From a virus (Duplodnaviria > Heunggongvirae > Uroviricota > Caudoviricetes), in IMG/VR virus record IMGVR_UViG_2713896834_000007, positions 1 to 17,048 of that record: 17,048 nucleotides of DNA; one strand, given 5' to 3'. Below the pieces are notes generated by a model that saw only the letters and a list, made by a program, of their open reading frames with translations, was not told the DNA's origin and searched no databases. Both the position numbers and the translations under genes were made by a program. Every line of letters begins with the position of its first letter. Position 1 is the first letter of the stretch. Of this stretch, positions 1,459-17,048 are shown one piece after another.

Positions 1459-2622
1459 TTACACATCATTAGTACCTTCCTTATTTTTTGACTGGGACAA
1501 ATTTGGGACCGATGGGTTCAGGATCGAGTCTATTTGCCGTGCGTGTTCGGTAAGGTGATTAGGTGCAAGGTGAGCATATCGACGAACCATTTCGATAGAC
1601 TCCCAGCCTCCCATTTCCTGTAACACTGACAACGGGACTCCGGCTTGAACCAGCCAACTTGCCCAGGTGTGTCTCAAGTCGTGAAATCTGAAATCATCAA
1701 TACCAGCCCGTCTCAGCGCCGCTTTCCAGGCTGTGTTTGCGTCATACCGCATCTTCCTTACTGTTGGCGCTTTCGTTCCGTCTGGTTTGGTACAGCTTTC
1801 CTTGTACACAAATACCCAACGGTGATGATTCCCGATTTGTTTTTTCAATACGCGACATGCAGTATCATTCAGCGCAACGCCAATTGCGCGGTTTGATTTA
1901 CTCTCTTCCGGGTTTATCCATGCCACCCGGCGCTGCATATCTATTTGTTGCCATTCAAGGTTGATGATGTTCGAGCGTCTTAAGCCTGTTGCCAGTGCAA
2001 ATTCAACAACAGACTTTAATGGCTCCGGACATTCATCAATCAGCCTTTGTGCTTCATGGGGCTCCAGCCAGCGGATCCGTTTATTCTTTGGTTGAGGCAC
2101 TTTAATAATTGGTGCCTTATCCAGCATTTTCCATTCACGCTCTGCGGCTCTTAGTAGGGCCTTTATAAATGAAAGATGCGTAGCCTTCGTTGCAACGGAC
2201 GCTGGTTTTGGCGTGTATTCTGGAACAGGTTTCCCTTTTTTTCTGCATGCTTCTGCCCTGAGTTTCCAGTTTTCCTCATGACGCCGGTTCGTCATTTTCT
2301 GCATTGCTGAATAAATTTTTGATTCAGTAATGTCTCTTAGTTGCATTCCTGCGAAATGTTGAAGCCAGAATCCGATCCGGCTTTTGTCATCGTCCAGTGA
2401 TTTTTTATGTGCTTTCTCTTCAAGCCACCTGACACACGCTTCCTCGAACGTTATATCAGGTATTTCACCAAGTTTGCTGACCCGCCATGCTTCAGCCTTT
2501 AGCTTGTCATGGAGTTCTGTCGCCTGCCTTTTGTCCTTTGTTCCAAGAGACTGTTTAAATCTTTTACCGTTCGGCAATGTGAAACTGGCGTACCATATTT
2601 CACCTCTGCGGAAGAGTGACAT
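1459..2622 (-). CDS. int: Site-specific tyrosine integrase, phage P22 Int family
   Basis: 387 aa, [46 protein letters not shown]..., near-identical over long stretches to P22 integrase as I recall it; catalytic region [10 protein letters not shown] ... VRRYAHL; adjacent to tRNA-Thr, the P22 attachment site. Confidence 0.93.
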
Positions 2623-6125: not shown

Positions 6126-6818
6126 TTAATTGTGTCGCTTAAGGGTTTGTGACTGGCTGATTAAGACCTTTCCAAAGACCATAAACCGGTGTTCATTTTC
6201 GCTGGTAATTCCCCATTCACGGTAAATCTGGTTATCAGAAATCACCAGTAGTTTGTCAGGTATCATTTGCAGTCGTTTGACATAAATTTTATCATCAAAA
6301 CCAAATACATAGATACCATCTCCATCAAACTGATTGATACTGACATCAACGAAGATGAGATCTCCTGGCTCAATGGTTGGACACATACTGTCCCCACGAA
6401 CGTTGATAACTTTAATGTGATTGGCTGGCCGTCCGCCAAACATCGATACAGCATTATCAGTTCTGTATTCAATGGCATGAATCACATCAATGACATCACC
6501 GCCCTGGATAAGGCCATTTCCCGCACTGGCACTGACATCCAGCATTTCAATACGGAATACATCCTTCACCTGCGCAACATCCTCACTAATACTGTTTTTA
6601 CATACAGTATTACTTTTGACGTCTGAGGTAAAGAGATCAGCAATATCAACACCTAAGCTCCTGGCAATATTACTCAGGGCTTGTTCAGTGAATTGTTTCT
6701 GCTTACCTGTTTCCAGGCGTGAGATATTCGCCGCATCCACTCCTATTGCTTCAGCGAGATCGGCGATTTTCATGTTCTTCGCCTGGCGAAGTTGTCTGAC
6801 TCGGTTTCCTATGTTCAT
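6126..6818 (-). CDS. CI-like prophage repressor (N-terminal XRE-family HTH + C-terminal S24 LexA-like peptidase domain)
   Basis: 230 aa; N-terminal VRQLRQAKNMKIADLAEAIGVDAANISRLETGK HTH; C-terminal VRGDSMCPTIEPGDLIFVD (Ser nucleophile) and YVKRL (Lys) typical of autocleaving S24 repressors; divergent from a Cro-like gene. Confidence 0.9.
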   Translation of the reverse strand: MNIGNRVRQLRQAKNMKIADLAEAIGVDAANISRLETGKQKQFTEQALSNIARSLGVDIADLFTSDVKSNTVCKNSISEDVAQVKDVFRIEMLDVSASAGNGLIQGGDVIDVIHAIEYRTDNAVSMFGGRPANHIKVINVRGDSMCPTIEPGDLIFVDVSINQFDGDGIYVFGFDDKIYVKRLQMIPDKLLVISDNQIYREWGITSENEHRFMVFGKVLISQSQTLKRHN

Positions 6819-6915: not shown

Positions 6916-7176
6916 ATGCAATCACCATTACGGAATGTGCGTAAGGCGCACGGATTTACTTTGCAGCATGTTGCTGCTGGCGTTCAGGTCAATCCAGCGA
7001 CGCTGAGTCGTATTGAAAGACTGGAACAAATTCCATCTATAGATCTTGCAGAACGTCTGGCCAATTTTTTTAAGGGTGAAATCAGCGAAATGCAGATTCT
7101 TTATCCGGCACGTTTTCAATCTAGCCAAAACCAGAATGGGTTTAAACCACAGGAACAGGAGGTAAGCCGTGGGTAA
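6916..7176 (+). CDS. Cro-like HTH transcriptional regulator (XRE family)
   Basis: 86 aa; HTH LRNVRKAHGFTLQHVAAGVQVNPATLSRIER; first gene of the rightward operon opposite the repressor. Confidence 0.8.
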   Translation: MQSPLRNVRKAHGFTLQHVAAGVQVNPATLSRIERLEQIPSIDLAERLANFFKGEISEMQILYPARFQSSQNQNGFKPQEQEVSRG

Positions 7177-7726
7177 TCATCACTGGAAAGTGGAAAAACA
7201 GCCTGAGTGGTACGTGAAAGCTGTCAGAAAAACTATCGCGGCGTTGCCGGGGGGTTACGCTGAAGCTGCTGAGTGGCTGGATGTAACAGAGAACGCATTA
7301 TTTAACCGCCTTCGTGCCGATGGCGATCAGATTTTCCCGCTGGGATGGGCAATGATTTTACAACGTGCTGGTGGCACTCACTTCATTGCTGACGCTGTGG
7401 CGCAGTCTGCAAATGGCGTCTTTGTGTCTCTTCCTGACGTCGAGGATGTGGACAATGCCGATATTAACCAGCGTTTACTGGAAGTCATTGAACAGATCGG
7501 CAGTTATTCAAAACAGATTCGTTCGGCAATCGAAGACGGTGTAGTGGAACCGCATGAGAAGACAGCAATTAACGACGAGCTGTACCTCTCAATTTCGAAG
7601 CTGCAGGAGCATGCAGCACTTGTCTACAAAATTTTTTGCGTTTCAGAAAGTAATGACGCCCGCGAGTGTGCAGCTCCGGGCGTCGTGGCGTCGATTGCTT
7701 CTGGTTGTGGAGAAACTAACGCATGA
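7169..7726 (+). CDS. CII-like / YdaT-family regulatory protein
   Basis: 185 aa, GTG start with AGGAGG RBS 5 nt upstream; occupies the cII position between cro and the replication gene; region [31 protein letters not shown] resembles the CII/YdaT DNA-binding core. Family assignment by resemblance only. Confidence 0.5.
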
Positions 7727-8081
7727 ACAGTTTAACAACACACTACCGTCGCTCGCAACTGATTGCGCTTCCTGTACCGGGTGGAAAAGCGAAGGTGGAG
7801 TATTGCTATGCAGTAAATGTACCAGGTGACAGGGAAATTGTAACCCACAGCTTTGCTGAGTGGGCTGTGGGGGATTTCAACCGGCAGAAGGAGACAGTCC
7901 TTTGCGACAAGTTAACCGCTGGTTCAAAGATCACTACGGAGTGCCCGTCAGAGTCATTCGTTGGGAGCCGGAAACACAACGGGTTATCTACCTCCGCGAA
8001 GGCTATGAGCATGAGTGCTTCAGCCCGCTCGAACAGTTTCGTCGTAAATTCAGGGAAGTAGAGGTCGGTCATGAGCACTAA
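7723..8081 (+). CDS. Hypothetical small protein; two overlapping frames (7723-8061 and 7860-8081), possibly frameshifted
   Basis: Frame beginning at 7723 (ATGA overlap with upstream stop) reads protein-like for about 50 codons then becomes low-complexity ([15 protein letters not shown]); the -1 frame from 7860 reads protein-like in its C-terminal part ([37 protein letters not shown]) and overlaps the replication gene start. Confidence 0.35.
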
Positions 8082-9012
8082 ATTAACCGGCTATGTATGG
8101 GATGGTTGCGCTGCATCAGGCATGAAATTATCCAGCGTGGCAATTATGGCCCGCCTGGCTGATTTCAGTAATGACGAAGGTGTGTGCTGGCCATCAATTG
8201 AAACCATTGCCCGCCAGATTGGCGCGGGGATGAGTACCGTCAGAACGGCTATCGCACGGCTGGAAGCAGAAGGCTGGTTAACGCGTAAGGCGCGTCGCCA
8301 GGGTAACCGCAATGCGTCGAATGTTTATCAGCTTAACGTTGCGAAGCTTCAGGCAGCGGCATTTTCTCAACTGTCAGATTCTGACCCGTCAAAATCTGAC
8401 GCATCAAAATCTGACCCGTCAAAATTTGATGCGTCGAAATCTGGCAAAAAAGCGGGTTTTCACCCGTCAGAATCTGGTGGGGATCCGTCAGTAAAATCAA
8501 AACATGATCCGTCAGATAAAAAAACTTCTCGTCCGGACGCTTCGCAACCGGACACGCAGACGGCTGAACAGGATTTTTTAACTCGCCATCCTGATGCGGT
8601 TGTATTCAGCCCTAAAAAGCGCCAGTGGGGAACGCAGGATGATTTGACCTGTGCACAGTGGCTCTGGAAAAAAATCATTGCCCTGTACGAGCAGGCCGCC
8701 GAATGTGACGGCGAGGTGGTTCGTCCCAAAGAACCGAACTGGACAGCCTGGGCAAACGAAATTCGCCTGATGTGTGTGCAGGATGGTCGTACTCACAAAC
8801 AAATCTGCGAGATGTACAGCCGCGTCAGCCGCGATCCGTTCTGGTGCCGTAACGTGCTCAGCCCGTCGAAGTTGCGGGAAAAATGGGATGAGCTTTCCCT
8901 GCGCTTATCGCCGTCCGTCAGCACGTACACCGAAAAACGCGAAGACCCGTACTTCAAAGCCAGTTACGACAACGTGGACTACAGCCAGATCCCGGCAGGA
9001 TTCAGGGGGTGA
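8071..9012 (+). CDS. Phage replication initiation protein (lambda O-like; N-terminal winged-helix DNA-binding domain, repetitive linker, C-terminal domain)
   Basis: 313 aa; N-terminal KLSSVAIMARLADFSNDEGVCWPSIETIARQIGAGMSTVRTAIARLEAEGWL wHTH; internal SKSDP/SKSDA/SKFDA peptide repeats encoded by DNA iterons; position after cro/cII-like genes. Confidence 0.8.
   Translation: MSTKLTGYVWDGCAASGMKLSSVAIMARLADFSNDEGVCWPSIETIARQIGAGMSTVRTAIARLEAEGWLTRKARRQGNRNASNVYQLNVAKLQAAAFSQLSDSDPSKSDASKSDPSKFDASKSGKKAGFHPSESGGDPSVKSKHDPSDKKTSRPDASQPDTQTAEQDFLTRHPDAVVFSPKKRQWGTQDDLTCAQWLWKKIIALYEQAAECDGEVVRPKEPNWTAWANEIRLMCVQDGRTHKQICEMYSRVSRDPFWCRNVLSPSKLREKWDELSLRLSPSVSTYTEKREDPYFKASYDNVDYSQIPAGFRG
8376..8530. 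repeat. Putative origin of replication: ~15 bp direct iterons plus A/T-rich tract inside the replication initiator gene
   Basis: Four to five tandem units AAAATCTGAC(C/G)C(G/A)TC (about 8376-8450), further CCGTCAG copies and A-rich runs (GGCAAAAAAGCGGG, GATAAAAAAACTTCTC) to about 8530; the same layout as lambda ori inside gene O. Confidence 0.55.
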
Positions 9013-9503
9013 TCATGAGTCTTTTGAATGAAGTTCAGAAATACATTGAAGCCCATCCGGGGTGTACTTCCGGAGACATTGCGGATGCTTTTGCTGGTTA
9101 CTCACGGCAGCGCGTTCTGCAGTCAGCAAGCAAGTTACGTCAGAGTGGGCGTGTGGCTCACCGTTGTGAAGGAGATACACGCAGACATTTCCCGCGCCTG
9201 ACTGAGAGAGCGCAGGAGCCGGAACCACAACCAGTTCGTGAAACCAGACCTGTGCGCAATTTCTATGTCGGCACTAACGATCCCCGGGTAATTTTGTGCC
9301 TGACCCGCCAGGCTGAAGAACTGGAGTCCAGGGGCTTATACCGTCGTGCTGCAACGGTGTGGATGGCGGCATTCCGTGAAAGCCATTCCCAGCCAGAACG
9401 AAACAATTTTCTGGCGCGTCGTGAGCAGTGTTTACGGAAAAGCAGCAAGCGCGCTGTATCGAGTGATGAGTGGTATCTGTCAGGGAATTACGTGGGGGCG
9501 TAA
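9009..9503 (+). CDS. yfdN: YfdN-like / PerC-family-like protein, 164 aa
   Basis: 164 aa ORF overlapping the upstream gene stop; size matches K-12 CPS-53 YfdN by recollection; C-terminal RRAATVWMAAFRES...ERNNFLARREQC segment resembles PerC-type regulators. Weakly supported. Confidence 0.45.
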   Translation: MIMSLLNEVQKYIEAHPGCTSGDIADAFAGYSRQRVLQSASKLRQSGRVAHRCEGDTRRHFPRLTERAQEPEPQPVRETRPVRNFYVGTNDPRVILCLTRQAEELESRGLYRRAATVWMAAFRESHSQPERNNFLARREQCLRKSSKRAVSSDEWYLSGNYVGA

Positions 9504-9829
9504 TGACGACGTTAACTCAATGCCAGCAGCAGGTGCTGGATATGCTGATTTCTTACCAGAAAGAACGTGGCTTCCCGCCAACCAATCAGGAGGTGGCAAC
9601 CATGCTGGGATACCGTTCAGTGAATGCAGCGGTGGAGCATCTTCGCGCACTGGAGAAAAAAGGCGTCATCACGATAAAGCGTGGCGTGGCCCGGGGGATC
9701 ACGCTTCATACCGCGGTGAAGGACGACGACAGCGAGGCGGTCGGTATCATCCGCGCACTGCTTGCCGGTGAGGAAAACGCCAGGCAGCGTGCAGCCCACT
9801 GGTTACATGAGAGGGGCCTGAAAGTATGA
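9503..9829 (+). CDS. LexA N-terminal DNA-binding-domain-only protein (no S24 peptidase domain), 108 aa
   Basis: MTTLTQCQQQVLDMLISYQKERGFPPTNQEVATMLGYRSVNAAVEHLRALEKKGVITIKRGVARGI aligns position-for-position with the E. coli LexA N-terminus ([63 protein letters not shown]); start at ATG 9503 overlapping the upstream stop (TAATG). Confidence 0.75.
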   Translation: MTTLTQCQQQVLDMLISYQKERGFPPTNQEVATMLGYRSVNAAVEHLRALEKKGVITIKRGVARGITLHTAVKDDDSEAVGIIRALLAGEENARQRAAHWLHERGLKV

Positions 9830-10215
9830 AGCTGATCTTGCCTTTCCCGCCCAGCGTGAACACGTACTGGCGACACCCCAACAAAGGGGCGTTTGCAGGT
9901 AAGAGCCTGATAAGCGCGGCGGGGCGCAAATTCCAGAGCGCGGCGTGTGCAGCAATAGTTGAGCAGTTACGTCGTCTGCCAAAACCAACGTCGGCACCTG
10001 CTTCAGTGGAGATCGTGTTGTTTCCTCCGGATAACCGGATCCGCGATCTGGACAACTATAACAAGGCGCTGTTTGACGCCCTGACCCACGCGGGTGTGTG
10101 GGAAGACGACAGCCAGGTGAAAAGAATGCTGGTGGAGTGGGGACCGGTTATCCCGGAAGGGAAGGTCGAGATCACTATCAGTAAGTACGAGAAAACGGCG
10201 GGTGCAGCCGCCTGA
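9826..10215 (+). CDS. rusA: RusA-family Holliday junction resolvase
   Basis: 129 aa; LPFPPSVNTYWRH ... NRIRDLDNYNKALFDALTHAGVWEDDSQV with the conserved RusA Asp cluster; ATGA overlap with the upstream gene; typical nin-region location. Confidence 0.85.
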   Translation: MKLILPFPPSVNTYWRHPNKGAFAGKSLISAAGRKFQSAACAAIVEQLRRLPKPTSAPASVEIVLFPPDNRIRDLDNYNKALFDALTHAGVWEDDSQVKRMLVEWGPVIPEGKVEITISKYEKTAGAAA

Positions 10216-10234
10216 TCAAGAGGAGAAACGAAGT

Positions 10235-11032
10235 ATGAATAATCTGATGGTCATTGATGGTATTGAAGTTCGTCGTGATGCTTATGGGCGTTACAGCCTG
10301 AACGATCTGCACAGGGCTGCTGGTTCTCTGGATAAGCATAAGCCTGCATTCTGGCTCCGCAATGAGCAAACTGAACGTTTAATAAGCGAGTTGCAGATTT
10401 GCAACTCGGTCAATATAGAGCCAGTTAACGTTATTCGTGGCGGAAATAACCAGGGGACGTATGTCTGCAAAGAACTGGTGTATGCCTATGCAATGTGGAT
10501 CAGCCCGTCATTCCATCTGAAGGTGATCCGTACTTTCGACATGGTAACCAGCGCACCGGAAAAATTATCCGGACAGGCTGCTGACAAGATGCAGGCTGGT
10601 GTGATTCTGCTGGACTTTATGCGCCGGGAATTAAACCTGTCTAACTCTTCAGTGCTTGGTGCCTGTCAGAAACTCCAGGAGGCTGTTGGCTTACCGAATC
10701 TGGCACCGCGCTATGCCATTGATGCTCCTGCTGACGCGCCTGATGGCTCAAGCCGCCCCACGCTGTCACTGAGTGCACTGCTGAAGCAGTATGGTATCCG
10801 CCTGACAGCTAATCAGGCATATCACCAGATGGTGAAGCTGGGGATCGTCGAGCAGCGCGAACGATACAGCCGTACCGCGATTAACAACATCAAAAAATTC
10901 TGGTCGCTGACAGCGAAAGGCTGCATGTTCGGCAAGAATATCACCAGTCCCGCAAATCCGCGCGAGACGCAGCCGCATTTCTTCGAATCCCGATTCCCTG
11001 AGCTGTTAAAGCTGCTCGATACCGTTCATTGA
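10235..11032 (+). CDS. KilA-N domain protein (antirepressor-like)
   Basis: Start at MNNLMVIDGIEVRRDAYGRYSLNDLHRAAG with AAGAGGAG RBS upstream; N-terminal KilA-N-type domain (KPAFWLRNEQTERLI ... YVCKELVYAYAMWISPSFHLKV), C-terminal domain unassigned. Confidence 0.7.
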   Translation: MNNLMVIDGIEVRRDAYGRYSLNDLHRAAGSLDKHKPAFWLRNEQTERLISELQICNSVNIEPVNVIRGGNNQGTYVCKELVYAYAMWISPSFHLKVIRTFDMVTSAPEKLSGQAADKMQAGVILLDFMRRELNLSNSSVLGACQKLQEAVGLPNLAPRYAIDAPADAPDGSSRPTLSLSALLKQYGIRLTANQAYHQMVKLGIVEQRERYSRTAINNIKKFWSLTAKGCMFGKNITSPANPRETQPHFFESRFPELLKLLDTVH

Positions 11033-11033
11033 G

Positions 11034-11612
11034 GTGACCGTGAGAGCACTACTGACCCCTGAAATTGCCCCGCGTATGGGGATCGTATTGTTCAGGCCAG
11101 GTTCAGAGTTGATGCCCCTGTTTATGCAGGGGCGTGTCCTGCTGGAGCCTGAGCCGGAACGTTATTCATCTTTCGCCAGTGGTGCAGTTCCGGCGGCATC
11201 ACAACCGCTGGCGGATGATCCTGCCGTTCGGGCCGTGTTCCGCAATGAGGCAGTGATCCGTCGTGCTGGTGGCGTGGAATGTCTTGAAAGCTGGTTACTT
11301 CGTGAAAAAAGCTGCCAGTGGCCTCATTCCGACTGGCACAGCGAGAACATGACCACAATGCGACACGCTCCGGGCGCAATCCGTCTGTGCTGGCACTGCG
11401 ATAACCAGCTGCGCGATCAGTTCACGGAACGGCTGGAATCAATGGCAACGGATAACTGTGCCCGCTGGGTGTTGTCTGTTGTGCGTCGGGATCTCGGTTT
11501 TGATGACAGTCACGTTGTGACAATGCCGGAACTGTGCTGGTGGCTGATTCGTAATGATCTGGCGGATGCCTTTCTGGTGTTGAGTTTGATGGTTCCAGAG
11601 ATATTACTTTAA
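11034..11612 (+). CDS. Hypothetical Cys/His-containing protein; 3' end probably disrupted at the prophage internal deletion junction
   Basis: 192 aa, GTG start; contains CQWPHSDWH ... LCWHCDNQ (possible metal-binding); its last ~18 codons overlap, out of frame, the open tail-fibre reading frame that begins by 11558. Confidence 0.35.
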
Positions 11613-12538
11613 CCGCCGCGCATGTGGCTGCTTTTGCCAGAAGGGCAACGGATACATATGCCGATGCGGATGGTGGCGTTCCCTGGAATGCCGAATCAGG
11701 CGCTTACAATGTCACCCGCTCTGGCGACACCTATATTCTGGTTAACTTCTATACCGGAGTCGGAAGTTGCCGGACCCTGCAGATGAAGGCGCATTACAGA
11801 AATGGAGGTCTGTTCTACCGTTCCTCAAGAGATGGCTATGGTTTTGAGGAAGGCTGGGCAGAAGTTTATACCTCGAAAAATCTTCCACCAGAAAGCTACC
11901 CAGTTGGCGCACCAATCCCGTGGCCATCAGATACCGTTCCGTCTGGTTATGCCCTGATGCAGGGGCAGACTTTTGACAAATCTGCTTACCCGAAACTTGC
12001 AGCGGCTTATCCGTCAGGCGTGATCCCTGATATGCGTGGCTGGATGATTAAGGGCAAGCCCGCCAGTGGTCGGGCCGTATTGTCTCAGGAACAGGACGGC
12101 ATTAAATCGCACACCCACAGCGCCAGCGCATCCAGTACGGATTTGGGGACGAAAACCACATCGTCGTTTGATTACGGCACTAAATCCACGAATAACACTG
12201 GTGCGCATACCCATAGTGTTAGCGGTACGGCTGCTTCAGCCGGTGCACATACCCATTCGATGACATTTGTTTCAGGTGGTTCCAGTGGTGCTCCGGGAAG
12301 TGGATCACCTGATTATTCTAAATACAGTGTTAACACTTCTTCTGCAGGCGCTCATACGCACTCTGTATCGGGTACTGCTGCAAGCGCAGGTGCACACGCA
12401 CATACTGTCGGTATTGGTGCTCATACGCACTCCGTTGCGATTGGTTCACATGGACATACCATCACCGTTAACGCTGCTGGTAACGCGGAAAACACCGTCA
12501 AAAACATCGCATTTAACTATATTGTGAGGCTTGCATAA
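11558..12538 (+). pseudogene. 5'-truncated side tail fibre gene (C-terminal fragment)
   Basis: Reading frame is open from 11558 (after an in-frame TGA at 11555-11557) with no proper start; tail-fibre-like sequence ([12 protein letters not shown] ... repeated [20 protein letters not shown]); first in-frame GTG at 11624; followed directly by tfa. Confidence 0.7.
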
Positions 12539-13122
12539 TGGCATTCAGAATGAGTGAACAACCACGGACCATAAAAATTTATAATCTGCTGGCCGGAACT
12601 AATGAATTTATTGGTGAAGGTGACGCATATATTCCGCCTCATACAGGTCTGCCAGCAAACAGTACCGATATTGCACCGCCAGATATTCCGGCAGGCTTCG
12701 TGGCTGTTTTCAACAGTGATGAGGCATCGTGGCATCTCGTTGAAGATCATCGGGGTAAAACGGTTTATGACGTGGCTTCCGGCGACGCGTTATTTATTTC
12801 TGAACTCGGTCCGTTACCGGAAAATGCCACTTGGTTATCCCCGGAAGGGGAGTTTCAGAAGTGGAACGGCACAGCCTGGGTGAAAGATGCAGAAGCAGAA
12901 AAACTGTTCCGGATCCGGGAGGCGGAAGAAACAAAAAACAGCCTGATGCAGGTAGCCAGTGAGCATATTGCGCCACTTCAGGATGCTGTAGATCTGGAAA
13001 TCGCAACGGAGGAAGAAACCTCATTGCTGGAAGCCTGGAAAAAGTATCGGGTGTTGCTGAACCGTGTTGATACATCAACTGCACCGGATATTGAGTGGCC
13101 AGAAGAACCAGACACCGTGTAA
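12538..13122 (+). CDS. tfa: Tail fibre assembly protein (Tfa)
   Basis: 194 aa; start ATG overlaps tail-fibre stop (ATAATG); N-terminal [62 protein letters not shown] is typical of lambda-type Tfa chaperones. Confidence 0.8.
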
Positions 13123-13191: not shown

Positions 13192-14010
<819 letters not shown>

Positions 14011-14371
14011 TCATTGCAAGGGCTCACAACCAGTAGTGTTGAGAAAACCATCGGAGAAATGAGGCTAAGCCTTTGAATTTACATAGTACAAAAAAGATAC
14101 TTTTCCTCATAATGTGAGCTAATTTTATGTTTCGTTTGATGATTGGACCGGTCTCGAAAACCGTAGACACATAGTATGCGTTAATTTATGAACAAACTAC
14201 TTGTCTGCTGTTTTTCTGTCATTAGTCGTATATAGAATGATTCTCTATGCCTAACAAAGCATCACCAGTGCTAGATTACGTTGTAGTCACTGTTTAAATA
14301 TCCAGATAAAACATTTCCTTCTGGGTTGAATGAGTGATAAAGTTTCACCCATTAGACCCCTTGGAGGAATT

Positions 14372-15805
14372 ATGTCTGAATTTGAAGTGTTGGCACAGCA
14401 TCTGCTGAAGGAAGCCGAGGCGGAAGAAAAGCTGCGACAGGAAAATGATAAAAAGCTTATCGAGAAAGTGCTGGAAATCTATGATCAGAAGTATGTGGCT
14501 GAATTACTGAGAAAAGTCGGAAAAAATGAGTGGAGCCGTGAAACCATTAACCGCTGGATTAATGGCAAGTGTTTACCAAAATCGTTGACTTCAGTAGAAG
14601 AGTCTCTTCTGCGTAAGATGCTACCAGAACCACCTGCAAACCATCCGGAATATGCTTTCCGCTTCATTGACTTATTTGCTGGAATTGGAGGGATACGGAA
14701 AGGTTTTGAGGCCATTGGAGGCCAGTGTGTTTTTACCAGTGAATGGAATAAAGATGCTGTGCGTACATACAAGGCCAACTGGTTTAACGATGAACAGGTG
14801 CATAAATTCAATCTCGATATTCGGGAAGTCACGCTGAGTGATAAAACCGATGTATTGGAAACGGATGCTTATGCATATATTGATGAGCATGTGCCGGATC
14901 ATGATGTGCTTCTTGCGGGGTTCCCGTGCCAGCCATTTAGCCTTGCTGGTGTTAGTAAGAAAAACTCACTTGGTCGTGCGCATGGTTTTGAATGTGAAGC
15001 ACAAGGAACACTTTTTTTTGACGTGGCACGTATTATACGAGCAAAAAAACCGGCAATTTTTGTGCTGGAAAATGTCAAAAATCTGAAGAGCCATGATAAG
15101 GGTAAAACTTTCAAAGTCATTATGGAGACCCTTGACGAGCTGGGCTACGAAGTTGCCGATGCTGCAGAAATGGGAAAAAACGATCCAAAGATTATCGATG
15201 GGAAGCATTTTTTGCCTCAGCATCGTGAACGCATTGTTCTGGTCGGATTTAGACGAGATCTGAATATTCACAAGGGGTTTACCTTGCGTGATATCAGTCG
15301 TTTTTATCCGGAACACCGCCCATCATTTGGTGAATTGCTGGAGCCTGTAGTCGACAGTAAATATATACTTACGCCAAAACTATGGGAGTACCTTTATAAC
15401 TACGCCAAAAAGCATGCAGCCAAGGGGAATGGTTTTGGCTTTGGGTTGGTCAATCCTGAGAATAAGGAAAGCATTGCACGCACACTTTCTGCCAGATATC
15501 ACAAAGACGGATCAGAAATTCTTATTGATCGTGGTTGGGATATGGCAACGGGAGAGGCTGACTTTATGAATGAGAGTAATCAGGCTCGTCGACCACGCAG
15601 GCTGACTCCCCGAGAGTGCGCACGCCTTATGGGATTTGAAAAACCTGGAGGGAAACCATTCCGTATTCCGGTTTCAGATACTCAGTCATATCGGCAGTTC
15701 GGTAACTCAGTTGTGGTGCCAGTATTTGAAGCTGTTGCCAGACTTCTGGAACCCTATATCCTCAAAGCTGTTTCTGCTGATGCTGGTAAGACTGGGCAGC
15801 CTTGA
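14372..15805 (+). CDS. ecoRIIM: DNA-cytosine C5-methyltransferase, Dcm / M.EcoRII-like (CCWGG-type), 477 aa
   Basis: Start taken at MSEFEVLAQ (ATG 14372) with GGAGGA RBS, not the upstream in-frame ATG at 14330; motifs [16 protein letters not shown] (AdoMet binding), [11 protein letters not shown] (catalytic PCQ), [16 protein letters not shown]; long stretches near-identical to E. coli Dcm as I recall it. No vsr follows; it is paired with an EcoRII-like endonuclease instead. Confidence 0.9.
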
Positions 15806-15839: not shown

Positions 15840-17048
15840 CTATGATAGTTCAGCGTAAAGCTCTATCAGCTCAGTAATGAATGCTCCGAGCGTTATTAAT
15901 TCTTCTCTAACTGCTTCTGGGTATTTTTTATGTAAAGTTGATGGTACAACGAGTCTGACACCCGCATCTTTCATTTCTCGGTATTGTGCTGAAGAAACAC
16001 CTTCTTGCAGTGTAAATAAATGTACCTGATGGATTTTATCTGCTTCATTCAGTATCTGACGCCAGCGATCTTTGCAGGTGGTCTTTACTGCCAGCATACG
16101 TAAGTTTTCTACAGGAAATTCAACGTTATGATATGCCTCTGCTGAAGGAAACAGGAAATCTGGTTTTTTATTACCTTCAGTAACTGCCTGAGTGGAGAAA
16201 TGCCGTAGTCCGTGCTCGATAAAAAGCTTCTCTAGGTGAAGTTCAAGTGATTTGCCTGCCCTTGATTTACGTCGATTACTGACAGAGTTGGCTAATGCAA
16301 TAAACTCATCTACAGAATCGAATCCTTTCTTAATAATATCAAGAACATGTAATTCCTCGACGAGTAGAAAAATATCATACTCGACACGCCGACGGTCAAT
16401 CAGTTGCTCATCTGGATCCTTGGAGTTTTTAGCATAATGGCCAGCAGCATATTGAATAATTTCGTTTCCAGAAGGAAAACGCTTCTTCCAGTCTTCAGGA
16501 ATAACATATTTATGATTTACTGGAGTTTGCTGAAGAGACAATCCGCCCAAAATTTGTCCGGCAGGGCCGGAAATTAGGGTTCCAGGTATGATTTCGCCAA
16601 TAGCAGACTCGATGATATCCTCTTCATCGGGATTGACGCAGACCCATATATCTACCTCGGAACAGTCAGTGTTCTGTTCGTTTAACCTGAAAGCAAGAAT
16701 TGTGAGGGCTCCTGTATTTTCAGGGTTCTGTAATGGACTTCCTCTCCCCCAGCGCGTAATTCTTTTTTCGTTTCGGGTCTTACCAAAATAACGGTTGTTG
16801 TAATAAATTGCGCGTGCTTGGGTATCAGGGCAATCATGGGATGATACATGCGCAGTAAGGAAGACTGAAGGGTTCAGTTCGCGAGTATGATTGATAGATG
16901 GAAAAAGCTTTTCAACGATATTTGAGGGGATATAAAGTCCGACCTGATGGCCACCTGTTGCGCCTGTGTCGTTTGCAGAAAGGCGTTTGATGTAGATAAA
17001 GTAATTCCCGCTTGCGATATCAAGCAGCCAGTTATGAAAAACCGACAT
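15840..17048 (-). CDS. ecoRIIR: Type II restriction endonuclease, EcoRII-like (complete; start codon at the window edge)
   Basis: 402 aa, MSVFHNWLLDIASGNYFIYIKRLSANDTGATGGHQVGLYIPS... matches the R.EcoRII N-terminus and overall sequence as I recall it (EcoRII is ~404 aa); ATG occupies 17048-17046; convergent with the Dcm-like methyltransferase. Confidence 0.88.
   Translation of the reverse strand: MSVFHNWLLDIASGNYFIYIKRLSANDTGATGGHQVGLYIPSNIVEKLFPSINHTRELNPSVFLTAHVSSHDCPDTQARAIYYNNRYFGKTRNEKRITRWGRGSPLQNPENTGALTILAFRLNEQNTDCSEVDIWVCVNPDEEDIIESAIGEIIPGTLISGPAGQILGGLSLQQTPVNHKYVIPEDWKKRFPSGNEIIQYAAGHYAKNSKDPDEQLIDRRRVEYDIFLLVEELHVLDIIKKGFDSVDEFIALANSVSNRRKSRAGKSLELHLEKLFIEHGLRHFSTQAVTEGNKKPDFLFPSAEAYHNVEFPVENLRMLAVKTTCKDRWRQILNEADKIHQVHLFTLQEGVSSAQYREMKDAGVRLVVPSTLHKKYPEAVREELITLGAFITELIELYAELS

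What the first reader, a model, noticed from the sequence alone, without database searches (positions are those of the whole stretch)
9503..9829. Prophage-encoded LexA DNA-binding domain without the autocleavage (S24) domain
The 108 aa product aligns across its length to the winged-helix DNA-binding domain of host LexA but stops where the LexA hinge and peptidase/dimerisation domain would begin; its last ~40 residues are unrelated. A protein that recognises SOS boxes but cannot be inactivated by RecA-stimulated autocleavage could act as a non-cleavable SOS-box binder or a competitor of host LexA. The prophage's own repressor is an S24-type autocleaving protein, so the two would respond oppositely to DNA damage. 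The gene is translationally coupled into the replication/nin operon (TAATG and ATGA overlaps on both sides).
Basis: partly seen in the sequence, partly recalled or inferred. Interest (0 to 1): 0.5.

Follow-up and report, generated by a model that had tools for sequence, protein, structure and literature searches.

The report
Phage stand-alone LexA DNA-binding protein
A defective E. coli prophage carries a small, intact and very common gene that copies only the DNA-binding head of the host SOS repressor LexA and adds a short conserved helical tail. It probably binds DNA without being switched off by DNA damage, but nobody appears to have tested what it binds.

Summary
Window 9503-9829 (+) encodes a 108-aa protein whose residues 1-65 match the whole LexA DNA-binding domain (Pfam E 2.9e-19). 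The model superposes on DNA-bound E. coli LexA at 0.9 A with 50% identity. There is no S24 domain, and RusA starts inside the stop codon.

It is not a frameshift remnant. 53 DNA haplotypes in 83 loci are all intact, with synonymous changes in excess. Homologues down to about 41% identity keep the length (104-135 aa), the tail and the position before rusA. It matches PHROG 362 end to end and is SfV orf42. It also occurs in SfII, SfIV, cdtI, mEp460 and Stx2 phages.

The tail is a confidently predicted helical hairpin and a plausible dimeriser. All four LexA base-contacting residues (S39, N41, A42, E45) are kept. Related prophages carry strong SOS boxes at conserved places, including one inside this prophage's cI gene.

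The best reading (about 0.45) is an uncleavable, early-expressed, SOS-box-type repressor. The main rival is a regulator with its own operator, like gp6 of Bacillus phage GIL01, the one characterised precedent. No experimental paper on this enterobacterial family was found. Interest is moderate.

The parts
9503..9829 (+). Gene for the 108-aa stand-alone LexA-head protein, called LexN in this report. It is orf42 of phage SfV and is annotated by NCBI as 'LexA family transcriptional regulator'.
   Evidence: ORF and PF01726 over 1-65; PHROG 362, 1-108 against 1-106 of 106, E 1.5e-59; annotation in E. coli KKa014 and in SfV.
9503..9706 (+). Winged helix-turn-helix domain, aa 1-68: helices 6-22, 28-35 and 40-52, and strands 56-58 and 66-68.
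   Evidence: AlphaFold2 model with block pLDDT of 81-91. Foldseek hit to 3jso at rmsd 0.9 A and 50% identity. A profile of the family matches LexA 1-74 in the PDB.
9617..9658 (+). Recognition helix SVNAAVEHLRALEK, aa 39-52. It keeps S39, N41, A42 and E45 of E. coli LexA ([14 protein letters not shown]); P40 and E44 are both replaced by V.
   Evidence: Alignments. Contact residues come from PMC11442139 and PMC3091678.
9707..9724 (+). Flexible acidic linker, aa 69-74.
   Evidence: pLDDT is below 50 for residues 71-74. This segment varies in length and sequence across the family.
9725..9811 (+). C-terminal helical hairpin, helices 75-88 and 93-103. It is a candidate dimerisation or partner-binding module.
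   Evidence: pLDDT is about 90. It is conserved down to about 41% identity, with A97 and L101 nearly invariant. Polymorphism gives 21 synonymous against 9 non-synonymous changes in codons 71-108. It has no counterpart in the PDB by sequence.
9009..9503 (+). Upstream PerC-family gene (yfdN-like). Its stop overlaps the LexN start as TAATG.
9826..10215 (+). RusA Holliday-junction resolvase gene. Its start overlaps the LexN stop as ATGA. It is the near-constant downstream partner.
   Evidence: PF05866; same overlap in 77 of 79 loci; the nearest co-oriented gene downstream of LexN is rusA in every distant-homologue locus: overlapping by 4 bases in L003-L008, 2 bases apart in L010, and separated by an inserted opposite-strand gene in L009.
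6126..6818 (-).
6590..6609 (.). Near-consensus SOS box TACTGTTTTTACATACAGTA inside the cI gene, in its linker codons. It is a candidate cis site for host LexA, LexN or both; binding is inferred, not shown.
   Evidence: the only zero-mismatch match; PSSM score 25.8; the arms are conserved at nucleotide level between alleles that are 69% identical; 2 sites scoring at least 18 in the window against 0.02 in shuffles.
14288..14307 (.). Weaker SOS-like box CACTGTTTAAATATCCAGAT, 23 bp before the start of a C5 DNA methyltransferase gene. Binding is inferred only.

Best explanation
LexN is a functional, stand-alone LexA-type DNA-binding regulator that RecA cannot inactivate because it has no S24 domain.

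It has no promoter of its own. It is made from the early rightward operon (cro, cII-like, O-like, PerC, LexN, RusA, KilA-N), so it appears only after the cleavable cI repressor has been lost.

The winged helix keeps the LexA residues that read CTGT. The conserved C-terminal helical hairpin is proposed to replace the missing LexA C-terminal domain as the dimeriser. The dimer would then occupy CTGT-N8-ACAG boxes.

Its proposed job is to re-impose or retune repression of SOS-boxed promoters once host LexA has been destroyed. Targets would include host SOS genes and SOS boxes carried by the phage itself, such as the box inside cI here and the box at the start of the late-region methyltransferase gene in complete relatives.

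Shown here: domain identity, intactness, purifying selection, synteny, the operon position inferred from the gene overlaps, and the presence of strong SOS boxes.

Inferred: DNA specificity, dimerisation, repression and the biological benefit.
For: - Full-length PF01726 match with no S24 domain.
- The model superposes on DNA-bound LexA at 0.9 A with 50% identity.
- S39, N41, A42 and E45 are all retained. These are the residues reported to mediate direct readout of CTGT (PMC11442139).
- The wing residues G61, R64, G65 and I66 are invariant or nearly so.
- The tail is a high-confidence helical hairpin. It is conserved to about 41% identity and is under purifying selection, 21 synonymous against 9 non-synonymous changes.
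- No promoter-like site lies in 8900-10300, and the gene overlaps its neighbour on each side.
- Strong SOS boxes recur in these prophages. The window has 2 sites scoring at least 18 against 0.02 in shuffles. All 21 loci that carry the late methyltransferase have a box at its start. The box is present in 23 of 31 cI-230 alleles in the LexN-centred set and in 80 of 80 in the cI-centred set.
- The arms of the cI box are conserved at nucleotide level across a diverged linker.
- In L010 a consensus box sits in a promoter-like stretch upstream of the 75-aa ORF, LexN and RusA unit, an arrangement like that of lexA itself.
- From general knowledge, not tested here: engineered fusions of the LexA head (residues 1-87) to foreign dimerisation domains such as leucine zippers repress SOS-box reporters and are uncleavable. 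LexN resembles a natural version of that design.
Against: - No binding, oligomerisation or expression data exist.
- P40V, E44V and R28N differ from LexA. The engineered LexA408 specificity change, recalled from memory, involves residues 40-42.
- Several family members in hosts with the same SOS box have altered recognition helices: P0086 SVNTIAGH, P0172 SQNTVFIH, P0160 and P0243. The family as a whole is therefore not held to LexA specificity.
- 33 of 80 LexN loci have no strong SOS box (PSSM at least 16) within about 10 kb, and L004-L009 have no site scoring at least 12.
- Host LexA alone is enough to explain the phage SOS boxes.
- The near-complete linkage of the boxed cI allele with LexN (63 of 66) comes from near-identical prophages and is not independent evidence.
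- The only characterised analogue, GIL01 gp6, recognises a different palindrome and activates transcription.
- The SOS-box PSSM was built from sites recalled from memory.
Confidence: 0.45

Rival explanations
1. LexN works like gp6 of GIL01. It is a phage-specific transcription factor, either activator or repressor, that has drifted from LexA specificity. It binds its own operator in the phage genome to time early or late genes and has little or no effect on host SOS boxes.
For: - gp6 is a LexA-head-only protein that binds GaCACAnnTGTGaC rather than the host LexA box and activates the late promoter (PMC6182141).
- Recognition-helix positions 42-45 vary among LexN family members living in hosts with the same SOS box.
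- Many LexN prophages show no strong SOS box nearby.
- Databases label the family simply 'transcriptional repressor'.
Against: - In the E. coli, Shigella and Citrobacter clade that includes the window, all four LexA base-contact residues are intact. Helix 3 matches LexA at 12 of the 14 positions 39-52 apart from P40V and E44V, counting the K48R and R52K swaps as conservative.
- These phages already have Q antiterminators for late control.
- No alternative conserved palindrome was identified here, though the search for one was limited.
Confidence: 0.3
2. LexN antagonises host LexA instead of substituting for it. It could occupy half-sites or make mixed head-to-head contacts on DNA without stable repression. 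It could also present its LexA-like hinge (LLAGE) as a decoy to S24 proteases or RecA*. Either way it would change SOS timing.
For: Residual similarity to the LexA hinge and cleavage site: AGE aligns with A84-G85-E86.
Against: - The Ala-Gly is not conserved across the family, where the equivalent positions read LLANEEN, MVERESD, LLTRKEN and so on.
- The segment is predicted to be helical, not the strand-loop seen in LexA.
- SOS boxes overlap promoters, so occupancy by any protein would normally repress. This rests on general knowledge.
Confidence: 0.1
3. LexN is a DNA-targeting accessory of the recombination and nuclease genes that follow it (RusA, DUF968/HNH), not a transcription factor.
For: - rusA overlaps the LexN stop codon in 77 of 79 loci.
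- rusA follows LexN in homologues down to about 41% identity even though the upstream genes differ.
- One metagenomic protein, P0159, fuses a LexA head to the C-terminal part of DUF968.
Against: - RusA occurs in 409 phage records but LexN in only 61, and most RusA subfamilies have no LexN.
- In Edwardsiella phage EPP-1 the two genes are not adjacent.
- The single fusion may be a product of a deletion.
- RusA is known to act alone as a resolvase; this rests on general knowledge.
Confidence: 0.08
4. It is a decaying remnant of a full-length lexA-like gene and has no function.
For: The window prophage is defective: DUF968 is truncated and joined to tail-fibre genes, and the Q, lysis and head genes are missing. 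LexA similarity fades out near the cleavage site.
Against: - 53 haplotypes in 83 loci are all intact, with 52 synonymous against 12 non-synonymous changes.
- The length and the tail are conserved to about 41% identity.
- The gene is present in viable phages such as SfV, SfII, SfIV, cdtI, mEp460 and Stx2 phages.
- rusA starts within the stop codon, which leaves no room for a lost S24 domain.
- The nearest full-length LexA is a chromosomal housekeeping copy.
Confidence: 0.02

Closest known systems
E. coli LexA (SOS repressor; PDB 3jso, 1lea, 1jhh)
   Same: Same winged helix-turn-helix fold (rmsd 0.9 A, 50% identity over 68 residues). Same base-contact residues S39, N41, A42 and E45, and the same wing motif RGI. 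Weak similarity continues through the hinge.
   Different: No S24 peptidase and dimerisation domain and no catalytic Ser/Lys. The TIGR00498 score of 71 is below the cut-off of 111. The C-terminus is a 30-residue helical hairpin instead. P40V, E44V and R28N differ. The gene is phage-borne and sits in an early lytic operon.
gp6 of Bacillus thuringiensis tectivirus GIL01 (PMC6182141)
   Same: [quoted passage not shown]
   Different: gp6 is 66 aa with no tail. It has no detectable pairwise similarity to LexN, so the two are independent captures from different host LexA lineages. gp6 binds its own palindrome and activates the late promoter in a phage that lacks its own repressor. LexN phages have a cI repressor and a Q antiterminator, and LexN keeps LexA's contact residues.
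Engineered LexA(1-87) fusions to dimerisation domains, as used in LexA-based bacterial two-hybrid systems (recalled from general knowledge, not retrieved here)
   Same: A LexA head joined to a short foreign helical dimeriser gives an uncleavable SOS-box repressor. This is the architecture proposed for LexN.
   Different: Those are artificial constructs. Dimerisation by the LexN hairpin is only predicted.
BlaI/MecI-type and MarR/Rrf2-type repressors (winged helix plus C-terminal helical dimerisation element)
   Same: Overall layout of a winged helix followed by helices. These are weak whole-chain Foldseek hits, for example 1okr, 2g9w and MepR. Pfam gives a sub-threshold Rrf2 hit.
   Different: No sequence relationship. 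The rmsd is high (about 9-10 A) because the domains are arranged differently. The head of LexN is specifically LexA-type.
Other stand-alone viral LexA-head proteins in BFVD (uncultured Caudovirales, Mycobacterium phage Wildcat, Tectiviridae; 65-150 aa)
   Same: Same fold with no S24 domain. This shows the architecture is common in phages.
   Different: Different or absent C-terminal extensions. They are uncharacterised. Tandem two-head versions also exist (P0132 and P0133).

Membership tests
LexA proper (TIGR00498 equivalog, SOS repressor) | N-terminal LexA winged-helix DNA-binding domain (PF01726) | tested here: met
   E 2.9e-19 over residues 1-65 against profile 1-65 of 65. Structural match to 3jso at 0.9 A.
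LexA proper (TIGR00498 equivalog, SOS repressor) | C-terminal Peptidase_S24 domain with the catalytic Ser119/Lys156 pair, which also provides dimerisation | tested here: not met
   No PF00717 hit. The protein ends at residue 108 and rusA starts inside the stop codon.
LexA proper (TIGR00498 equivalog, SOS repressor) | Whole-protein score above NCBIfam's curated cut-off | tested here: not met
   71.2 bits against a cut-off of 110.95. The alignment covers profile positions 1-92 of 203 only.
LexA proper (TIGR00498 equivalog, SOS repressor) | Ala-Gly self-cleavage site in the hinge, used in RecA*-stimulated autocleavage | tested here: inconclusive
   A88-G89 aligns with LexA A84-G85. There is no protease domain, the Ala-Gly is not conserved in the family, and the segment is predicted to be helical.
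LexA proper (TIGR00498 equivalog, SOS repressor) | Binds CTGT-N8-ACAG SOS boxes and represses SOS genes | not testable with these tools
   The only proxy is that the four base-contact residues are retained.
PHROG 362 / NCBI 'LexA family protein' (about 106-aa phage LexA-head proteins) | End-to-end match to the family profile | tested here: met
   E 1.5e-59, residues 1-108 against profile 1-106 of 106. The protein is 95-98% identical to SfV orf42, SfII, cdtI, mEp460 and Stx2-phage proteins.
PHROG 362 / NCBI 'LexA family protein' (about 106-aa phage LexA-head proteins) | Conserved C-terminal helical hairpin and a position just upstream of rusA in a lambdoid early or nin region | tested here: met
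GIL01 gp6-type truncated LexA homologues | Phage-encoded and LexA DNA-binding domain only | tested here: met
GIL01 gp6-type truncated LexA homologues | Sequence relationship to gp6 | tested here: not met
   BLASTP finds no alignment with E of 100 or better.
GIL01 gp6-type truncated LexA homologues | Binds a phage-specific palindrome and activates a late promoter | not testable with these tools

The most novel reading that the evidence does not exclude
LexN is a phage-made, RecA-proof surrogate LexA. Once DNA damage has destroyed host LexA and the prophage's own cI, LexN would dimerise through its helical hairpin and re-occupy SOS boxes.

That would shut host SOS functions back off, for example division inhibition, SOS-induced toxins, mutagenic polymerases, and LexA-controlled rival prophages and colicins. 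It would also act on SOS boxes embedded in phage genes. One such box lies inside the cI coding sequence, where binding could block re-synthesis of the repressor and lock in lytic growth.

The 1.2-kb PerC-LexN-RusA segment was found in about half of complete E. coli genomes, and the gene is carried by Stx2-converting phages. If the reading is right, it describes a widespread and overlooked layer of SOS control.
Probability: 0.3. Interest if true: 0.7.

Novelty: new variant of a known kind. Interest (0 to 1): 0.45.

Why it matters
The SOS response governs prophage induction, Shiga-toxin release, colicin production and antibiotic-induced mutagenesis. An uncleavable LexA look-alike expressed exactly when host LexA disappears would rewrite the late phase of that response.

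The 1.2-kb PerC-LexN-RusA segment matched 2691 of 5426 complete E. coli genomes, and 2171 of them hold at least 80% of it. The gene also sits in Stx2a and Stx2c phages and in Shigella serotype-converting phages. Even a modest effect would therefore be broadly relevant.

The system is easy to test: a 108-aa protein, known reporter strains and defined candidate sites. If LexN instead has its own operator, it would be a second, independent case, after GIL01 gp6, of a phage turning the LexA head into a private regulator.

Tried and rejected
1. Frameshift or remnant idea. Rejected on haplotype intactness, the excess of synonymous changes, the conserved length and tail, and the chromosomal context of the nearest full-length LexA.

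2. Alternative start at GTG 9470 (119 aa). Rejected because the homologues and both profiles begin at MTTLT.

3. Homology to gp6. No pairwise alignment was found.

4. A known fold or family for the tail. Nothing was found: only a sub-threshold NIL hit in Pfam, PDB profile hits that stop at residue 74, and Foldseek whole-chain hits that reflect only a generic winged helix plus helices.

5. Anti-phage defence role. PADLOC gives only a meaningless weak CARF hit.

6. Own promoter. None was detected in 8900-10300. No convincing promoter was detected around the cI-internal SOS box either.

7. Correlation between recognition-helix variants and nearby SOS boxes in the distant loci L003-L010. No pattern emerged.

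8. Co-occurrence of the boxed cI allele with LexN (63 of 66). Judged uninformative because the loci are near-identical.

9. The search for related loci with the diverse alignment failed because no stretch was conserved enough. As a result, all 80 LexN-centred viral loci carry a 98-99% identical gene.

10. Literature. Seven searches found no experimental work on the enterobacterial family. The Zhang et al. 2010 LexA-DNA paper could not be retrieved, so the contact residues are cited second-hand.

11. A dimer or protein-DNA model could not be built with the tools available.
Full report
**1. Setting**

The window holds proA (1-1254) and tRNA-Thr (1369-1444), followed by a lambdoid prophage. The prophage genes, in order, are:
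- an integrase (1459-2622, minus strand);
- early-left genes of the yfdT/yfdR/yfdQ/yfdP type;
- a cI-type repressor (6126-6818, minus strand; HTH_3 plus Peptidase_S24);
- cro (6916-7176);
- a cII/YmfL-like gene (7169-7726);
- a YmfM-like gene (7723-8061);
- an O-like replication gene (8071-9012);
- a PerC/yfdN-like gene (9009-9503);
- the gene in question (9503-9829);
- rusA (9826-10215);
- a KilA-N gene (10202-11032);
- a DUF968/HNH gene (11034-11612).

The DUF968 gene is cut after about 179 of about 330 residues and runs straight into tail-fibre genes (11624-13122). The prophage therefore lacks the Q, lysis and head genes and is defective. An otherwise identical region in E. coli KKa014 is complete. 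Beyond the tail-fibre genes lie a PD-T4-3 defence gene and a type II restriction-modification pair.

**2.

ATG 9503 to TGA 9829 encodes 108 aa. PF01726 (LexA_DNA_bind) matches residues 1-65 against the whole 65-position profile, at E 2.9e-19, with no S24 hit. BLASTP against E. coli LexA gives 43% identity over residues 1-90.

An AlphaFold2 model built on a 19-sequence family alignment has a mean pLDDT of 85. It shows three helices and a two-stranded wing, a floppy linker at residues 69-74, and then a helical hairpin at 75-88 and 93-103. Foldseek places the head on the LexA-DNA complex 3jso at 0.9 A rmsd and 50% identity.

The TAATG and ATGA overlaps are exactly as stated. The prophage repressor is S24-type, with GDSM and VKRL catalytic motifs and an Ala-Gly in its linker.

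One claim needs correcting. Similarity to LexA does not stop at the end of the wing. The NCBIfam lexA model aligns through position 92, and BLASTP pairs LLAGE with the VAAGE cleavage site. The gene therefore looks like a lexA that was cut just past the hinge, after which the end evolved into a new structured element.

**3. It is a real, selected gene and not a remnant**

- In 83 loci the gene has 53 DNA haplotypes, all intact. Codons 1-70 show 31 synonymous and 3 non-synonymous differences. Codons 71-108 show 21 and 9.
- An exhaustive HMMER search of 1.84 billion representative proteins finds family members of 104-135 aa that align over residues 1-105 at 42-53% identity.
- In those members the tail pattern is conserved: hydrophobic positions in helix A, and A97 and L101 nearly invariant.
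- PHROG 362 matches end to end.
- The nearest full-length LexA, which is 58% identical in the head, sits next to accA and tilS and so is a host chromosomal copy.
- No related locus has a full-length paralogue at this position.

**4. It is common and already catalogued, but apparently unstudied**

The 1.2-kb PerC-LexN-RusA segment is found in 2691 of 5426 complete E. coli genomes, and 2171 of them hold at least 80% of it. The protein is 95-98% identical in SfV (orf42), SfII, SfIV, cdtI, mEp460 and many Stx2a and Stx2c phages. Annotators variously call it 'transcriptional repressor', 'LexA-like protein' or, wrongly, 'SOS-response repressor and protease LexA'.

Seven full-text searches found no experimental work on it. 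The only characterised phage LexA-head protein found was gp6 of GIL01.

**5. Genomic grammar**

The start of rusA overlaps the LexN stop codon in 77 of 79 close loci. In every distant homologue examined, rusA is the nearest co-oriented gene downstream of LexN: it overlaps the LexN stop by 4 bases in L003-L008, lies 2 bases away in L010, and is separated by one inserted opposite-strand gene in L009. This holds even though the upstream gene varies among PerC, Dam, a large DNA methylase, a replication protein and a 75-aa ORF.

RusA is far more widespread than LexN, with 409 phage records against 61. Only one RusA subfamily carries LexN. I read this as a co-inherited two-gene cassette and not as proof of a shared biochemical function.

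No promoter-like site lies near the gene. It is therefore an early-operon gene that stays silent until cI is lost.

**6. What it is likely to bind**

Reviews of the LexA-DNA structure attribute readout of CTGT mainly to S39, N41, A42 and E45 (PMC11442139). An older list adds E44 (PMC3091678). LexN keeps all four main residues. Its helix 3, SVNAAVEHLRAL, differs from LexA's [12 protein letters not shown] only at P40V, E44V and K48R. The wing motif R64-G65-I66 is invariant.

I scanned with a position-specific scoring matrix built from 20 E. coli LexA sites recalled from memory. In the window this found:
- a near-consensus box, TACTGTTTTTACATACAGTA, at 6590-6609 inside the cI gene (score 25.8);
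- a weaker box, scoring 18.3, 23 bp upstream of the C5 methyltransferase gene.

That is 2 sites scoring at least 18, against 0.02 in shuffles.

The cI box is under selection at the DNA level. The window allele and an allele that is 69% identical to it differ throughout the surrounding linker codons, yet both keep the arms ACT GTA ... AAC AGT A exactly. Three spacer variants of the box exist.

Complete relatives carry another box, TACTGTAAAAATAAACAGTG, across the start codon of the late-region N6/N4 methyltransferase. It is present in all 21 loci that have that gene, in SfV, and in variant form (CACTGTAAAAATAAACAGTG, just upstream of the start codon) in a distant locus. In locus L010 a consensus box lies in a promoter-like stretch just upstream of the unit made of the 75-aa ORF, LexN and RusA.

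These prophages are therefore clearly wired into LexA-box control.

**7. Limits of that inference**

Host LexA alone explains the boxes. 33 of the 80 LexN loci show no strong box (PSSM at least 16) within about 10 kb. Loci L004-L009 have no site scoring even 12.

Some enterobacterial family members have changed helix 3. P0086 of Citrobacter, 65% identical overall, reads SVNTIAGH. P0172, P0160 and P0243 lose E45. This would be unexpected if every member had to mimic host LexA.

gp6 shows that a captured LexA head can evolve a private site and even activate transcription. gp6 and LexN share no detectable pairwise similarity. They are independent captures, and gp6 has no tail.

**8. The tail**

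The tail is a 30-residue helical hairpin with pLDDT of about 90. It is rich in conserved hydrophobic residues (V80, I82, I83, L86, L87, A97, W100, L101). That is more than a lone hairpin needs, and it fits either a four-helix-bundle dimer or a partner-binding surface. This is inference.

LexA needs its C-terminal domain to dimerise, and engineered head-plus-zipper fusions restore repression; this rests on general knowledge. A dimerising tail would make LexN a natural version of those constructs.

Other solutions exist in nature. Tandem two-head proteins occur (P0132, P0133), and some heads carry different tails (P0135, Klebsiella phages). Many head-only viral proteins appear in BFVD.

**9. Verdict**

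The finding is real. The remnant hypothesis is excluded. A regulator of the gp6 kind with its own operator is a serious rival, at about 0.3.

The kind of protein, a phage-encoded stand-alone LexA head, is known. This lineage is a distinct variant with an added conserved hairpin and LexA-like contact residues. It is very widespread in E. coli and no experimental study of it was found. Interest is moderate, and it would rise if the protein proves to re-repress the SOS regulon.

Noticed in passing
window 6590-6609 (inside cI, 6126-6818, minus strand); also L003 836-855, L014 7095-7114 and 80 of 80 loci L092-L171: A near-consensus LexA/SOS box lies inside the coding sequence of the XRE-plus-S24 cI repressor, in the inter-domain linker codons (T-V-x-x-N-S). 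Its arms are identical at nucleotide level between alleles only 69% identical, while the surrounding linker has diverged. Three spacer variants exist. No convincing promoter overlaps it, so its role is unexplained: a roadblock to cI transcription, an internal or antisense promoter, or something else.
   Followed up: partly
L001 15481-15500; L002 (SfV) 8907-8926; L010 7739-7758; 21 of 21 LexN loci that carry this gene: An SOS box, TACTGTAAAAATAAACAGTG, spans codons 3-9 of the late-region N6/N4 DNA methyltransferase (SfV orf48), downstream of Q. In the distant locus L010 a variant (CACTGTAAAAATAAACAGTG) lies just upstream of the start codon instead. The gene is absent from the window because of the deletion. 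This suggests LexA-box control of a phage methyltransferase. An in-frame GTG or TTG just after the box could act as an alternative start.
   Followed up: partly
window 14288-14307, with 14330-15805 (+) and 15840-17048 (-): An SOS-like box, CACTGTTTAAATATCCAGAT (PSSM score 18.3), lies 23 bp upstream of a C5 cytosine methyltransferase. That gene is paired with a type II restriction enzyme gene on the opposite strand. This could be an SOS-linked restriction-modification system at the prophage end.
   Followed up: no
window 13192-13965 (-): A GIY-YIG protein matches the PADLOC model PD-T4-3, an anti-phage defence gene, end to end (E 7.6e-140). It lies between the tail-fibre assembly gene and the restriction-modification pair.
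   Followed up: no
window about 11570-11630: A deletion junction. The DUF968/HNH gene (11034-11612) stops after about 179 of about 330 residues and abuts a 3' fragment of a tail-fibre gene (11624-12538). The Q, lysis, terminase and head genes that are present in the otherwise identical E. coli KKa014 prophage are missing, so the prophage is defective.
   Followed up: partly
L010 4531-4580: In a distant relative, a consensus SOS box (TACTGTTTATATATACAGTG) follows TTGCAT and TACTAA promoter-like hexamers upstream of a 75-aa ORF, LexN and RusA. In that phage the cassette looks directly SOS-regulated, as lexA itself is.
   Followed up: partly
P0132 (222 aa), P0133 (141 aa), P0159 (240 aa; L172 5001-5723): Other architectures built on the LexA head were found. 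Some proteins have two tandem LexA heads in one chain. One prophage protein fuses a LexA head to the C-terminal part of DUF968/HNH. The same prophage (L172 3576-4584) carries a RecA-like gene split into two ORFs.
   Followed up: partly
P0001, P0023, P0121, P0092, P0004, P0055 (database proteins): Many database entries fuse LexN to its neighbours (O-like::LexN, Dam::LexN, LexN::RusA read-through) or carry local frameshifts. These probably reflect sequencing or assembly errors or sporadic decay in individual genomes. They inflate apparent family diversity, and some public records mislabel the gene as a 'protease'.
   Followed up: no
window 7169-8061: Homologues of the e14 genes ymfL (7169-7726) and ymfM (7723-8061) follow cro. 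RefSeq annotates K-12 ymfM as a cell division inhibitor. De-repression of this defective prophage may therefore block cell division.
   Followed up: no
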